A stretch of 50,073 nt of DNA. It comes from Myxococcales bacterium. GTDB lineage: Bacteria > Myxococcota_A > UBA9042 > JABWCM01 > BTVJ01. Location of the stretch: assembly GCA_045863395.1 (NCBI GenBank), contig BTVJ01000055.1, positions 1 to 50,073 of the forward strand. The letters are read 5' to 3'. Shown one piece after another: positions 26,301 to 35,300 of this stretch (positions are counted from its first letter, which is position 1; every line of letters begins with the position of its first letter). Made by a program: the position numbers.

Positions 26301-29300
26301 TCTTCGGGATCGCCGGCCAGGACTTCGAGCAGGCCATGACCATCGCCGGCCCCGCCATGGGCTTCGACGGAGACCCCTTCGCGCAGCTCAGCGGCGAGCT
26401 GGGCGTGGCGGTCATGGCGCCGAACGACGAGGACCCCGCTTGGGGCGTGACGGTCGTGCTCGGCATCGTGGACACGGAGGCCGCCGACGAGGCAGTGCGG
26501 CGCCTGGGCGTGCTGGGGCAGATGACCGGCATGGTCACCTACGACGAGGGCATGGAGGCGCTGCGCGTCGAGGTCCCGGCCTGGCGCTCCCTGACGGTCG
26601 GGCGCGCGGACAAGGCGCTGGTGGCGACGAGCGATCTGCGCGTGCTGGAGCGGCTCCGGGGCGGGTACTCGACCTCGCCGTCCTCGTGGGGCGCCCGCCC
26701 GGAGGTGAGCGCGCTCGCCGGCTCCCTCGGGGACGCGGGGGTGATCCTGTGGGACTTCAAGGGGATCAAGCCCAGCCTGGAGGAGGGCAACCACGTCTAC
26801 ACCCCCACCGTCTCAGAAGGCCAGACCGAGAGTCAGCGGGCGCTCGACGACATCGCCCGCCGGATGCGTGAGGAGCAGGAGCAGACCCGCGAGGTCATCG
26901 CGACCAACCAGAGTCAGTTGTTGGATCTCCTCGGCACGCTGGTGGCGACCGCCCGCGCCGAGGGTCCCTCCCTCTCGATTCGCGGCGCCTGGGTCTACGG
27001 GGCGGCCAACGCCCGGGAGCTTGGGACGCGCCTCGCTGGCCACGCCGCGGCCATCAGCGACGCCGAGGAGCTCCGCGAGAAGGCCATGGCACCCCTCTAC
27101 GAGGAGCAGCGCGTCCTCCTCGACAAGCACTACCGGGAGACGGGGCCGTACTGACCGGCGGCTCGGACTGCTGCTATAGATGCTGGACCGTGGTCGCGTC
27201 GCAGAGCGCAGACTCCATGGCTGCGGGGAGGCGTGGGTCCAGCACCAGCCGCTCCTGCTCCAGCCAGAGACCCCGTGCCGCCAGGTCACGCACCAGGTCC
27301 GGGGCGTCGCTGAGGTCGAGGTCCGGGGGCCAGTCGCGGGGGCGGGCGTCGGGGAGGTGCTCGCGCCAGAACGGGGGGACCAGCCAGCGCAGGGCGGGGT
27401 GGTGCTCCCGCAGGTGGCGGACGATACGGATGCCGTTCGGGTCCAGGTCGCCGAAGTGCAGGGTGGGGGCCTTCACCAGGGAGAGGAGGCGCCGGGCCGT
27501 CGCCGTGTTCCAGCCGGGGACGTGGACCAGCATGAAGCCGGGCGGGCGCGGCATGTCGCGCCACGCGCCCAAATTCTCGACGGTGACGACGGCCCGGAGC
27601 GGGCCCTCCAGGGTCAGGCCGTCGCGCAAGGCGCGGTCGGAGATGACCACCTCGTCGAGGATGGCCGCCACAGTGTCGAGCGCGAGGGTGCGTTGCCCCC
27701 GTCGGGCGATGACGCCCTCGGCGGGGCGGATGCGGAGCGCGCCGTCGTCGACAATCTCACGAGAGCCGAGGGTGCCGAGGCGCGCGGCGGTCAGAGTCGC
27801 CTTGGCGCCCGGTGCGGTGGCTGCGGCCGCCGTCCTGCGGTTGAGGCGGGCAGGCAGGGCGGGCAGGGAGGCGGACCGCCGGGCGTCCTCAAGGGTTGCC
27901 CAGCCCGCCGGGGTGGGCGCGACGCCAGCCTCCAACATCTCAACGTGGTCTGCACCCCAGGTCGGCCAGACCCGGTCGAGCAGGGCGACCAGGTCCGCGC
28001 GGCGCTCGGTGACGAGGGTGACCTCGTCTCTCCGGCCGGACGCTCGCGTCCACGACAGCTCCGCGAGCCAGTCGAAGGCGCCTCGTTGAGAGTCGCGCCG
28101 CTTCAGCGTGCCCCGGGTCAGCAGCTCCAGGAGCGCCAGTCGGTCCTCAGGGCGCTCCCACAAGCTCCGCCTCCGTGACGACCCGGCGGCCGCTGACCCT
28201 GACCTCCTCGCGGCCGCCCTCGCCGCGGGTGCGCACCAGGCGGAACACCGTGCAGCCCTCGGCGCGGGCCACCTCCGGAGAGGCGACGAGGAGCTGGAGG
28301 TCGAGGCTGCGGCAGAGATCGAAGAGGGTGCCGAGGTTGGCCTGGTCGAGGCGGTTCGCCTCGTCGAGGAACAGGAAGCGCAGGCTGCCGAGCGTGCGCT
28401 TGCCCCGCAGCAGCGTGGCGTCGCGCTCCCACTCGGTGAGCACCACCATCATGAGGGCGGCGCCGACGCCGATGGCCTCGCCGGTGGACAGGCGCGTCGG
28501 GTTGGCCTCCTCCCAGTCCGCTGAGCCCTGGCGCAGCACCTCCACGTGGAGGCGGATGTACTCGCGGTAGTCCAGCAGGCGCTGGCCGCCCGTGCGGCCG
28601 CCGCCGTAGCGCTTGAAGATGGCCTCCAGCGCGTCCTCGACGGGGACGTCCGCCTGGAAGAGGAGCCCCTGCGCCTCGCCCGACCGCAGCGCGCGGAGCA
28701 CCTGCTCCATCTCGGCGACGCGCTGCATGCGGACGCGGATGCCGCGGACGCTCCCGAAGCGGACGCCCCCCAGGTGGTCGCTGAGGCGGCGCACGCGGCC
28801 CTGCGCCTTCCTGATCTGTACGTCGATGCCGCGGGCGACGTCCTCGCTGGTGCCGCGCAGGTCGCGCTCCTGGCGGTCGAGCCGCTCCACGAGGCCCACG
28901 AGGTGGTCCCGGAAGCGCGCCAGGGCCAACAAGGGCTCTGCCACGTCGGCGATCTGCGCCGGGAGGCGCGAGCGCAGCCAGTCGCGGACCAGCAGCCACG
29001 CGCAGAGATAGCCCTCGCCGGTCTGGCCCGCGTCGAGGCACTTGCGCACCTCCGCGAGGAGGGCCGGGCCGCCATGTGCTGCCTCCAGGCGAACGACGAG
29101 CACGTCGCGGCGCCCGAGGGCGGCGGCAAAGAGGCTGACGCTGCTCCCCTCGAGCACGGGCGGTGCGGCCTGGAGCAGCCCCGCCGCCTCCACCTGGGGG
29201 CGAAGCCGGTCCCAGGCGTCCAGGGCCGGGCGCGCCTGCCTGCGCTCGTCCTCCTCCGTGGTGCGGGCGCTGGCCGCGTCCCGCTCTGCCGCTTCTCGCG

Positions 29301-32300: not shown

Positions 32301-35300
32301 AGATGCCTTTGTCGCCGCCGGTGGCGCCGGTCTCGCCGAGGTTCGTGAAGCGGAGGCGCGTCATGTCGGGCAGGAGCACCACGTAGGCCGCGACCATCAC
32401 CGTGGTCTTGCCGGCGCCGTTGTCGCCCTCCAGGGCGGTCACGTGGCGGTCGAGCTCGTAGCGCTCGTAGAAGACGCCCTTCCAGTTGACGAGGGCGAGG
32501 GCCTGGGCGCGGACGCGGCTCACGGCTCGTCCCCCTCGTCGGTCTCGGGCACCTCGATCTCGCCGAGCGCGATGAGCCGCTCCAGGGCCGCCGCCGGGTC
32601 TGCGGCGGCGCGGGCGGGCTCGGCGAAGCGCATGAGAGCCGGGCGCAGGCGGAGCCGCTCCCCGTCGACGTCCACGAAGCCGAGGTCGGTGAGCCCCCGC
32701 AGCGCGGCCGCCAGCTCCTTGCGCACATTCTCGGCGGCGACCCGCTCGTCCCGGCCCCGGCGGCGGTTCAGGGAGCGGAGCAGGTTGTCCTGGCCCACGA
32801 TGCCCGCGAGGCGCCGGAGCACCTCTTCTCGTTCCACCACGCCCCCCTCTTCGAGCGTCGCCGGGTCGAGGTAGAGCAGGGCGAGGGTCTGCCCCACGAG
32901 CATCTCGCCGGCGGTGAGCTGGCGCCGCCCGAGCCGGTCACCGCGCGGGAGCAGGTAGAAGTAGCCGTCGCTCTTGTGGACCAGCTCGGCGCCGAAGCGC
33001 CGGTAGAAGGGCTCCAGGTGGTCCAGGGCGTCCACGAGGAACGTGTACGCGGCGTCGTCCTCCCGCCCGACGTGGCGCCCGCGGCGGAGCAGGAGGTCCA
33101 CCTCGGGGAACAGGTCGTCGAGGATCGCGTCCTCCAGACGATGGTAGGACGAGCTCACGCGCGCTCCTGGCGGGTGATCGCCCACTGCTCGATCTCGAGG
33201 CCCGCAGCCGCTGCTCCCACGGGGACCCACGGCCGCTCCCGCTCGGACCGGGGCCGGGCGAGGCGCGCGACCAGCGCCGCCACCTGTCCCGCCGCCCCGA
33301 AACGACGCTCCGGCGACAGCGCCGCGAGGACCCGCGCCGTCACCTCCGAGAGGGTCGCAGCGGCGTCGTCGAGGGCCGCGCTGACCAGCGCGTCCAGGGG
33401 AAGGTCGCCCGCCGCGAGCTCCTCGGGCGGCAGCTCCCGGTTCACCCGCGCGCGCACCACCGGTGGGCGCTCCACGTCGCGGCTCGCGTCCCGGAGGAGG
33501 CGGATGCCGGGGGCGCGCGTCGCGGTCAGGTGGAACGGCCGCGAACTCCACCCGGCGAGCTGATCGCGAAGCCGCTGCGACAGCGCCCGGTCGGGGTCGA
33601 GGCGCACCACGTCCCGCAGGTACCGGTGAACGTATTGATAATAGTCGGACCAGGCGCGCTGGCGGGCGTCGCCCCACACGGCGACGCGGTCGACGTGCTC
33701 GGTCACCCGCTGGGCGGCGTCCTGGGCCGCCGTCATTCCCGCCGCCTCGGCGAGGTCGTGGATCTCCTGCAAGAGCGCCGCGAACTGGTGCGTGTCCCGC
33801 AGCAGCACCTCGTTGAGCTCCGCGAGGGTGGCGGTCGTGGTGTCGAGGAGCGTCTGGGCGTCGTCGACGGCGCCGAACCAGTCCGCCTGGAGGAGCCCGG
33901 CGATGTCCTTGCGGACCTGCTCCTGCGCGACATCGAGGCCTCGCTGGCGCCGCTCGATGCCGGCCACCAGGTCCCCCACCGTGACCCGGAGGGGGCCGAC
34001 GACATGCGCGGTCCACGCTTCTTCATCGCTGGCCCGCGCCGCGGCGCCCCGAATCTCGGCGAGCTGTCCGAGCAGCGTCCGGGTGAGCAGGGTCAGGCTC
34101 TCGCGGGTGAGGGCGTCGTCCGCCAGGAAATACTCGACGACCGCGGCCGCGAGCCGCGTCAGGGTGTACTCTCCCGCTCGCACGATGCCCGCGCCGTCCA
34201 CCCGGGCGAGCATCCGCTGGTCGCGGAGCCTCTGGACGGCGTGCGTCGCCCGCTTGCGGGGATTCTCTGCCCCAGGATCGACCATGTCGCAGACCTGCTC
34301 GAACAGGTCAATCAGCGCGTCGTCCCCAAAAGAAGCCAGCGCGTCGCGGTCTGCCCGCAGGTAGAGCCCCGCAAGGCAGCACAGGTCGAAGGTGGTCAGA
34401 TCGAGGCTCACCCGGTCACGAGACAGGGCGGCGACGAGCGTGTTCGGGTCGGTCCGGCGGTCGAGCATGTGGTCCCGCATTCCGGGCAGCTACGGCGCCG
34501 GCAGCAGCTCTTCGCGCCCGATGGCGCCCTCGGCGACCTCGGAGACGGTGAACCGCATGGGCAGAGTCTCGTTGGCGAGCCACAGGACGAGCTGATCGTG
34601 GAAGTGGGGGCTGCTCGTCAGCCCCGACTGCCCGCCCGGGATGATGTTGCGCCCCTCCACCTTGCCGCCGCCGAGCGCCACGACCATGCGCATGACGGGC
34701 CCGCTCCCGTGGGTGAAGGTCTTGCCGTTGAGGCCGGAGTTTGCGGCGTCCACCGCGTCCTGGTCGCCGTGGCGGGGGAACCACCGGAGGCCCTTGCGGG
34801 GGTCGCCGGCGGGCAGGGACTCCGCCAGCGGGAGCTTCTTCGTGTCGATGCTGAACAGATCCGCGATGAAGGCGTAGTCCGAACCCGCATCGAAGAACTC
34901 GGCGAGGATGGACTCGAAGCGGGCCTGGTGGCGGAGACCCCAGAGCCACTTGCCCATGTCGGTTGTGCCGAATCCGCCCGTGTCCGAGGTGGCCGGGGCG
35001 CTCCGGAGATGGTCGAGGGCCTCGATGAGCGAGAGGAGCATGATCTCGTCGCTGCGCTCCAGCTCCGGTGTCTGGAGCACGTCGAAGAAGATGGACTCCT
35101 CCGTCTCGTCGTGCCAGGAGGCCAGCTCGCGTGGGTTGTCGGGGCCTCGGCCGTCGAGCATGTACAACAGGGTGCGGATGCGCCCGTCGTTGCCGCCCGG
35201 GCGCCACACGCCGGGGAGCCCCTCGTCGTCGAAGGTGCGCTTCATCATGGCGCCTATCCAGGCGTTGAAGATCATGGTCGCTACCGAGGCGTCCGCGTCC

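What a model noticed while it worked through the whole genome (the two positions that open the first line are those of the whole stretch)
27174..34468. E. coli-type MukBEF joined to a JetD nuclease, with a sister group that lacks it
g04370-g04367 are mukF-mukE-mukB of the enterobacterial MukBEF family (Pfam KicB, MukF_M, MukE, MukB, MukB_hinge) followed by a JetD Toprim nuclease. The MukBEF family itself therefore includes Wadjet-like four-gene systems, next to close relatives without the nuclease.
Evidence so far: Full-length Swiss-Prot matches to MukB (E 2e-60), MukE, MukF; PADLOC JetC models hit weakly and no JetA/JetB model hits, JetD1 does. Of 55 relative loci with at least 900 bp after mukB, 37 have the JetD gene (Sorangium, Pseudomonas, Gammaproteobacteria, Planctomycetes) and 18, mostly Polyangiaceae/Kofleriaceae, do not. 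Patchy in the class, 6 of 107 strong matches.
(Added by a program. Inside this text positions count along the whole contig: contig position 1 is position 1 of the stretch shown here. "Call 12" and the like, gene names such as g00115 and contig names such as C1 are that model's own, and its searches are not shown. The text may have been shortened before it was handed on; [...] marks where a part breaks off. The agent that wrote the report below was given it as the finding of a first reader that could run no searches.)

Follow-up and report, generated by a model that had tools for sequence, protein, structure and literature searches.

The report
MukBEF condensin still carrying plasmid-cutting nuclease
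This is an intact four-gene operon in which relatives of E. coli's chromosome-folding machine MukBEF are coupled to a DNA-cutting enzyme of the anti-plasmid Wadjet kind; its family shows the enzyme being lost several times, which bears on the open question of whether MukBEF began as a defence system.

Summary
Confirmed: mukF-mukE-mukB-jetD, intact and overlapping, minus strand 27174-34480. MukB passes NCBI's MukB cut-off; JetD folds like MksG/JetD with its catalytic E/DxD invariant. Of 58 relative loci, 37 carry jetD and 21 do not. Best reading (0.75): an accessory Wadjet-type anti-plasmid nuclease built on a MukBEF-type motor, outside types I-III; activity untested. It is not enterobacterial MukBEF proper. 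The myxobacterial nuclease-less group is a separate loss nested among jetD carriers, not kin of E. coli MukB (AU p 8e-5), and keeps ScpA (20 of 21). JetD state changes at least six times. Aeromonas caviae has canonical cmoM-mukFEB, an intact same-family jetD 7 kb downstream, Smc and ScpA, and no MatP match; its JetD branches as its MukB does. That looks like a halfway stage of domestication. Limits: root unresolved, long branches, binding not modelled. Prior art: five such operons are rows in Data S1 of PMC7617805, the Wadjet-origin idea is in print as a hypothesis, and this scan noted the same kind of operon on four other genomes, one note giving the Aeromonas lead.

The parts
33155..34480 (-). 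mukF-type kleisin (JetA/MksF position), 441 aa; alternative start 34468
   Evidence: Pfam MukF_M E 1e-21, KicB 3e-8; NCBIfam MukF 353.5 bits, cut-off 407; no PADLOC JetA hit
32520..33158 (-). mukE-type KITE (JetB/MksE position), 212 aa, GTG start overlapping the mukF stop
   Evidence: Pfam MukE E 1e-33, MksE 8e-33; NCBIfam MukE 122 bits, cut-off 250; junction
28147..32523 (-). mukB-type SMC ATPase, 1458 aa: Walker A 33-40, MukB hinge about 640-792, signature LSTGE 1345-1349, Walker B D1387-E1388
   Evidence: NCBIfam MukB 905 bits, cut-off 699; PDB MukB E 8.5e-100 over 3-1447; motifs invariant in 68 relatives; 53% identical to So ce56 MukB
27174..28163 (-). JetD/MksG-type Toprim nuclease, 329 aa; predicted catalytic E196, D239, D241; invariant K121, E304
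   Evidence: Pfam JetD_C E 7.6e-10; invariant columns in 75 sequences; model pLDDT 96; top folds MksG 8b7f and JetD 7til; VIA Z 16.7, rmsd 2.6 over 165 residues to 8b7f
28170..28174 (-). Shine-Dalgarno-like GGAGG inside the end of mukB, 6 nt before the TTG start of jetD
   Evidence: read from the sequence; relatives align from residue 1 of this frame

Best explanation
An accessory Wadjet-type DNA-restriction complex whose motor belongs to the MukBEF branch. MukF dimerises two MukB/MukE motors; they load on DNA and extrude a loop with ATP; on a small circle both motors stall after full extrusion and the JetD dimer cuts the last unextruded segment with its Toprim E196/D239/D241 metal site, while the chromosome escapes. 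Shown here: the parts, their coupling, intact ATPase and nuclease motifs, the fold, purifying selection, co-descent of JetD with MukB, patchy spread. Inferred from Wadjet types I and II: loop extrusion, circle specificity, JetD docking, plasmid restriction. In this family the nuclease has been dropped repeatedly, and enterobacterial MukBEF most likely comes from one such loss.
For: Gene order and size as in FEBG/JetABCD operons. JetD fold and residues match MksG/JetD and Topo VI-A; E and DxD correspond to JetD E248/D290/D292 (passage, bioRxiv 2022.10.04.510915). dN/dS of JetD 0.15-0.31 in 5 of 5 pairs, like MukB. JetD and MukB trees agree in their main groups. Patchy: 6 of 107, 5 of 121, 7 of 351, 1 of 301 and one strong match in 301 genomes, centre genomes included, over several phyla. 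29 of 29 jetD carriers tested also have ScpA, so it is usually extra to the housekeeping condensin. Strong PADLOC matches among the two nearest genes per side: 17 of 40 jetD loci against 1 of 25 jetD-less loci. A Burkholderia megaplasmid copy lies beside CBASS-like, WYL and IS21 genes.
Against: No activity shown. The window's own locus is not in an island: neighbours are guaB, guaA, carB, a PIN gene and an acylase, GC is level, no tRNA. The host genome has no ScpA, ScpB or Smc hinge and no other SMC-kleisin system was found, so a chromosomal job is possible. PADLOC JetA/JetB models do not hit. Eight of the 17 defence-flanked loci belong to one AbiE-linked clade, several hits are candidate (PDC) systems, and flank genes were called by a rough script. 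No residue in the larynx region separates jetD carriers from jetD-less groups. The root of the MukB tree is unresolved (support 28).
Confidence: 0.75

Rival explanations
1. Dual or mainly chromosomal role in this host: the complex is the cell's condensin, with JetD a retained or secondary function.
For: G000 (97% complete) has no ScpA, ScpB, Smc hinge or Smc; the class has ScpA in 0 of 41 and ScpB in 1 of 107 genomes. The operon sits among housekeeping genes without a GC shift. Four other class members carry it without jetD and without Smc/ScpA. Dual function is suggested in print.
Against: 101 of 107 genomes of the class have no MukB match, both searched genomes of the same order among them, so the lineage manages without it. 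No MatP. JetD is intact. Nearly all other carriers keep ScpA.
Confidence: 0.15
2. Reverse direction: a housekeeping MukBEF escaped from gammaproteobacteria and picked up a JetD gene secondarily, so jetD carriers are derived.
For: The root could not be placed with Wadjet outgroups; counts of change cannot tell gain from loss. MukB size and hinge are fully of the E. coli kind.
Against: All linked JetDs form one family whose tree follows the MukB tree, including the Aeromonas plus Pseudomonadales pairing (97/92; 100/98 for MukB). A decaying jetD remnant and an in-place absence are seen (L134; L137 against L138). JetD carriers span most of the family's diversity. All of that is simpler as loss.
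Confidence: 0.07
3. JetD here is an independent nuclease or a passenger that does not work with the MukBEF motor, or the target is phage or other DNA rather than plasmids.
For: Binding was not modelled or tested. In Aeromonas the gene lies 4.4-7.2 kb from mukB and turns over faster (dS 1.3-2.6 against 0.3-0.4 in 3 of 5 pairs with both genes).
Against: Overlapping or abutting jetD in 37 of 58 loci across phyla; no full-length copy in any of 21 jetD-less genomes; type I and II JetD need their own JetABC (passage).
Confidence: 0.03

Closest known systems
FEBG operons of the MukB branch listed in Data S1 of Burmann et al. 2025 (PMC7617805): Sorangium So ce56 and So0157-2, Pseudomonas aeruginosa NCMG1179, Bradymonas sediminis, Massilia sp. 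PAMC28688
   Same: Same order, gene sizes (about 441/220/1470/325 aa) and MukB-type head motifs; 53% MukB identity to So ce56.
   Different: A new host lineage that lacks Smc-ScpAB. The passages of that paper that I saw do not name or discuss this branch and state that MukBEF lacks MksG/JetD. Its Fig. S1A maps nuclease loss on the tree; I saw only the legend.
Wadjet types I-III (JetABCD / MksBEFG / EptABCD)
   Same: Kleisin-KITE-SMC-Toprim operon; JetD fold and E/DxD site; patchy, defence-linked spread.
   Different: JetA/JetB models do not hit, JetC only at the P-loop; SMC of MukB length with MukB hinge; JetD about 330 aa, matching Pfam only in the Toprim part.
Canonical MukBEF (cmoM-mukF-mukE-mukB of E. 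coli, Photorhabdus, Vibrio)
   Same: MukB passes the NCBI equivalog; full-length match to solved MukB; F-E-B order.
   Different: Has jetD; no cmoM, no MatP; MukF and MukE below cut-off; lacks the 8-residue insert at E. coli MukB 1322-1329 found in 20 of 20 canonical and none of the other sequences; separate long branch; patchy.
Pseudomonas MksBEF and other nuclease-less Wadjet-group operons
   Same: Precedent for loss of JetD with a chromosomal role beside Smc-ScpAB (passages); parallels the jetD-less myxobacterial clade, which keeps ScpA in 20 of 21 genomes.
   Different: Different SMC branch; the window's operon keeps the nuclease.

Membership tests
Wadjet group (broad sense) | Co-directional kleisin, KITE, SMC ATPase and Toprim genes | tested here: met
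Wadjet group (broad sense) | JetD/MksG fold with intact E and DxD metal site | tested here: met
Wadjet group (broad sense) | Intact SMC ATPase motifs | tested here: met
   Walker A, signature and Walker B invariant in 68 sequences
Wadjet group (broad sense) | Accessory, defence-linked distribution | tested here: met
   At family level; the window's own flanks are housekeeping
Wadjet group (broad sense) | ATP-dependent cleavage of circular DNA and plasmid restriction | not testable with these tools
   needs experiment
Wadjet group (broad sense) | JetD docks on the SMC head (larynx) as in type I | not tested
Wadjet types I, II, III | Type-specific JetA, JetB and JetC models | tested here: not met
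   PADLOC: none for MukF or MukE at E<=0.1; JetC best 31.5 bits
Canonical MukBEF | MukB equivalog above cut-off | tested here: met
   905 against 699 bits
Canonical MukBEF | MukF and MukE equivalogs above cut-off | tested here: not met
   353.5 against 407; 122 against 250
Canonical MukBEF | MukB inside the enterobacterial/Vibrio/Aeromonas clade | tested here: not met
   canonical clade 100/100 excludes it; larynx insert absent
Canonical MukBEF | cmoM-mukFEB operon without nuclease | tested here: not met
   upstream gene is an acylase, jetD follows
Canonical MukBEF | MatP in the genome | tested here: not met
   0 of 1, genome 97% complete, E. coli control positive
Canonical MukBEF | Smc-ScpAB absent from the genome | tested here: met
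   but class-wide and not true of 49 of 50 other carriers
Canonical MukBEF | Needed for chromosome segregation | not testable with these tools
   needs experiment

The most novel reading that the evidence does not exclude
The MukB branch is an unnamed fourth Wadjet type from which nuclease-free condensins arose several times, and the line to E. coli can still be seen in steps: operon with jetD beside Smc-ScpAB (this window's clade, Endozoicomonas); fixed at cmoM with jetD moved a few kb away but intact and Smc-ScpA kept, no MatP (Aeromonas); jetD and Smc gone (enterobacteria). On this reading Aeromonas MukBEF, counted as a housekeeping condensin, still works with JetD as a plasmid-cutting machine, and E. 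coli MukBEF may be only a lost partner away from one.
Probability: 0.4. Interest if true: 0.85.

Novelty: new variant of a known kind. Interest (0 to 1): 0.62.

Why it matters
Reviews call the origin of MukBEF unresolved and only suggest that it was tamed from a Wadjet defence system. This operon family makes that testable: a motor close enough to E. coli MukBEF for full-length alignment, with a nuclease attached, plus natural pairs with and without it and an apparent halfway state in Aeromonas. It would show what a loop extruder needs to become an immune sensor, and how little has to change to make it a chromosome organiser. In practice, these operons are annotated as 'chromosome partition protein MukB' and PADLOC's JetA/JetB models miss them, so they would be an uncounted barrier to plasmids in myxobacteria, pseudomonads and others.

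Tried and rejected
(1) 'The jetD-less group replaced Smc-ScpAB': rejected for the myxobacterial clade, ScpA in 20 of 21 genomes, full Smc in 2 of 2 checked. (2) 'It is the sister of E. coli MukBEF': rejected, AU p 7.6e-5. (3) 'jetD moved elsewhere in those genomes': no full-length match in 21 of 21, though at most 40 candidates per genome were scored, nor in 4 of 4 class members. (4) 'Another effector replaces jetD': no shared downstream gene across the group. (5) Rooting with five Wadjet-like SMCs failed: outgroup branches 6-10 changes per column, root support 28, quick tree only. (6) No JetD-docking signature in MukB 1240-1345. (8) No relatives in viral contigs; a distant JetD query found nothing in metagenomes. 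(9) No sigma-70 promoter or fitting terminator. (10) RNA-run contigs cover the operon but also span convergent neighbours, so they do not show expression. (11) The record titled Enterobacteriaceae (L001) is not an enterobacterial case: its genome has one MukB, a ScpA match, and an order sample with MukB in 5 of 121. (12) The tree file and figures of PMC7617805 could not be seen (one search found the accessions only in the alignment and tables).
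Full report
Observation. The region holds four intact, overlapping genes on the minus strand: mukF (33155-34480), mukE (32520-33158), mukB (28147-32523) and jetD (27174-28163), with GC3 of 0.90-0.95 in the called frames and a GGAGG ahead of the jetD TTG. 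Pfam KicB, MukF_M, MukE, MukB, MukB_hinge and JetD_C pass their cut-offs. NCBIfam MukB scores 905 bits against a cut-off of 699, while MukF (353.5/407) and MukE (122/250) fall short. PADLOC has no hit for MukF or MukE, weak P-loop hits for JetC and E 1e-8 for JetD1. Contigs from two runs of other studies bridge the mukB-jetD junction, so it is no assembly artefact. The flanks are housekeeping genes with level GC and no tRNA.

The nuclease. 299 representatives at 50% identity match JetD at E<=0.001. In 75 aligned full-length ones, K121, E196, N197, G217, D239, D241 and E304 are invariant. The model (pLDDT 96) has MksG 8b7f, JetD 7til and Topo VI-A as best matches (VIA Z 16.7, rmsd 2.6, 165 residues, mostly the Toprim part). 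E196/D239/D241 correspond in spacing to JetD E248/D290/D292 (passage of bioRxiv 2022.10.04.510915). dN/dS is 0.15-0.31 in 5 of 5 pairs of close relatives, as for MukB.

Distribution. The genome scan kept the best 80 of 166 relatives. 22 were dropped for contig ends or a broken mukB; of the other 58, 37 have jetD directly after mukB and 21 do not. One of the 37 (L014, genome G052) is unpublished data; it also enters the ScpA count and the first tree. 50 of the 58 genomes were searched for ScpA: 29 of 29 with jetD and 20 of 21 without have it. None of the 21 has a full-length copy of this JetD elsewhere (at most 40 candidates scored per genome). MukB matches occur in 6 of 107 genomes of the window's class, 5 of 121, 7 of 351 and 1 of 301 of three sampled orders, and strongly in 1 of 301 of a gammaproteobacterial sample, centres included. 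Among the two nearest genes on each side, PADLOC matches at E<=1e-30 were found at 17 of 40 jetD loci and 1 of 25 jetD-less loci once generic kinase, sigma-54 and ABC-ATPase hits were set aside (20 of 40 and 3 of 25 with them). Eight of the 17 are one AbiE-linked clade, so the loci are not independent. A Burkholderia megaplasmid copy lies beside CBASS-like genes. The window's host is unusual: no Smc, ScpA or ScpB, a trait of its class (ScpA 0 of 41, ScpB 1 of 107), where four genomes of family f16 carry the operon without jetD.

Trees. A first tree of 84 full-length MukBs was followed by a careful tree of the head regions of 44 chosen from 95 (570 columns, LG+C20). The jetD-less myxobacterial group is one clade (99/99), sister to the window's clade (90/91), and is enclosed by jetD carriers (97/89, 97/92). 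Family f16 and L024 are separate jetD-less branches. Canonical MukB (100/100) pairs with a Pseudomonadales clade that includes Endozoicomonas (100/98; names), in which jetD is adjacent in two genomes, a remnant in one, and absent in two, one of them at the same site as a carrier. At least six changes of state are needed. Joining the myxobacterial group to canonical MukB is rejected (AU p 7.6e-5). Both partners of the canonical-Pseudomonadales pair are long branches, and five Wadjet-like outgroups could not place the root, so direction is inferred, not shown.

Aeromonas. An earlier scan note hinted at Aeromonas (text cut off). A search with the window's JetD hit a 4.9 Mb A. caviae record: a 341-aa frame of the same family (179 bits) 7.2 kb downstream of canonical cmoM-mukFEB on the same strand. 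Of 33 metagenome loci, 26 are of this type; 9 have 10 kb upstream, 6 of which contain Aeromonas mukB 4.4-7.2 kb away, and the other 3 begin in the gene that follows mukB. No other SMC-type ATPase lies in these loci. E and DxD are kept in 10 of 11 aligned copies, one has D to Y; dN/dS is 0.15-0.40 in 10 of 11 pairs, and dS far exceeds that of mukB in 3 of 5 pairs, as expected of a swapped defence gene. Clusters carry the names A. caviae, A. veronii and A. media/rivipollensis. These JetDs pair with the Pseudomonadales JetDs (97/90; 97/92 under the mixture model), as their MukBs do. The A. caviae record has ScpA and a 1126-aa Smc frame and no MatP match; a Proteus record has no Smc. This was checked in one Aeromonas record only.

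Mechanism. In type I JetD docks on the SMC larynx; whether it does so here is open, since no complex could be modelled and no signature was found. Parts, coupling and selection are shown; activity and target are inferred. Odds: Wadjet-type restriction 0.75, mainly chromosomal in this host 0.15, secondary gain of jetD 0.07, uncoupled nuclease 0.03.

What is in print. PMC7617805 (seen: outline, passages, phylogeny methods, searches and part 1 of Data S1, supplementary legends) puts MukBEF in the Wadjet group, says it lacks MksG/JetD, maps nuclease loss in Fig. S1A, and lists seven MukB-type operons: five FEBG and two FEB (E. coli, Endozoicomonas montiporae). Its tree and figures were not visible, so the sister relations may already be drawn there; its preprint was seen in passages. 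The Wadjet origin of MukBEF is stated as a hypothesis in three papers. PMC10512200 and bioRxiv 464701 were seen in passages, PMC10123090 as a listing only. Nine full-text searches showed no paper that names this branch as a Wadjet type, describes the myxobacterial loss, or mentions both Aeromonas and JetD among the 20 of 34 papers listed; subscription journals and bioRxiv supplements are not covered. This scan noted the same kind of operon on four other genomes.

Verdict. Real, and a new variant of a known kind: it works like Wadjet, belongs to the Wadjet group in the broad sense, and is neither a type I-III system nor canonical MukBEF. The locus itself is one more member of a branch already tabulated. 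The value lies in the family picture: repeated loss of the nuclease and an apparent halfway state in Aeromonas, which turn a standing hypothesis into direct experiments. Interest 0.62.

Noticed in passing
G000 and its class: The class seems to lack Smc-ScpAB (ScpA 0 of 41, ScpB 1 of 107, the one at a contig edge), and 101 of 107 genomes have no MukB match either; how these cells organise their chromosomes is unexplained.
   Followed up: partly
L129-L132 (G543, G544, G545, G541; family f16): jetD-less MukFEB in 4 of 8 genomes of one family that has no Smc or ScpA match: the best candidate for an independent housekeeping MukBEF. L132 is frameshifted.
   Followed up: partly
L133:19865-20890 (NZ_AP026896.1): Intact JetD-family gene 7.2 kb downstream of canonical mukB in Aeromonas caviae, which also keeps Smc and ScpA and has no MatP match. 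The record is filed as a plasmid but is 4.9 Mb and carries core genes.
   Followed up: yes
L134-L138: Pseudomonadales clade with jetD intact (L136, L138), reduced to a 118-aa remnant (L134) or absent (L135, L137); L137 and L138 share the same neighbours.
   Followed up: yes
L166, L171, L172: MukB-type SMC of only about 1016 aa, with MukB head and hinge, coupled to MukF, MukE and the same JetD family: a short-armed variant.
   Followed up: partly
E. coli MukB 1322-1329 (L091): An 8-residue insert in the larynx region marks all 20 canonical MukBs aligned and none of the others.
   Followed up: no
MukE of jetD-less myxobacterial loci, e.g. L051, L070, L071: MukE often has a longer acidic tail (many 250-330 aa against about 210-250 in jetD carriers).
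   Followed up: no
L020, L025-L027, L030, L034, L038: An AbiE toxin-antitoxin pair lies directly upstream of mukF in one clade; L030 also has Gabija downstream.
   Followed up: no
L117 (G049:C1, about 1747475): A second, lone and frameshifted copy of this jetD in Sorangium So ce513, in a frame that also matches part of mukB.
   Followed up: no
L092 (NZ_CP091309.1): The operon is carried on an 880-kb Burkholderia megaplasmid beside CBASS-like genes, well above the size that known Wadjets restrict.
   Followed up: no
window 21232-21882: PIN-domain gene just upstream of guaB-guaA; partner antitoxin not identified.
   Followed up: no
window 25049-27154: 701-aa membrane-anchored protein with no Pfam, PADLOC or NCBIfam match, ending 19 nt from the jetD stop on the other strand.
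   Followed up: no
window 34490-37900: Penicillin-acylase-family gene ending 9 nt before the first mukF ATG on the same strand; the operon may be read through from it.
   Followed up: no
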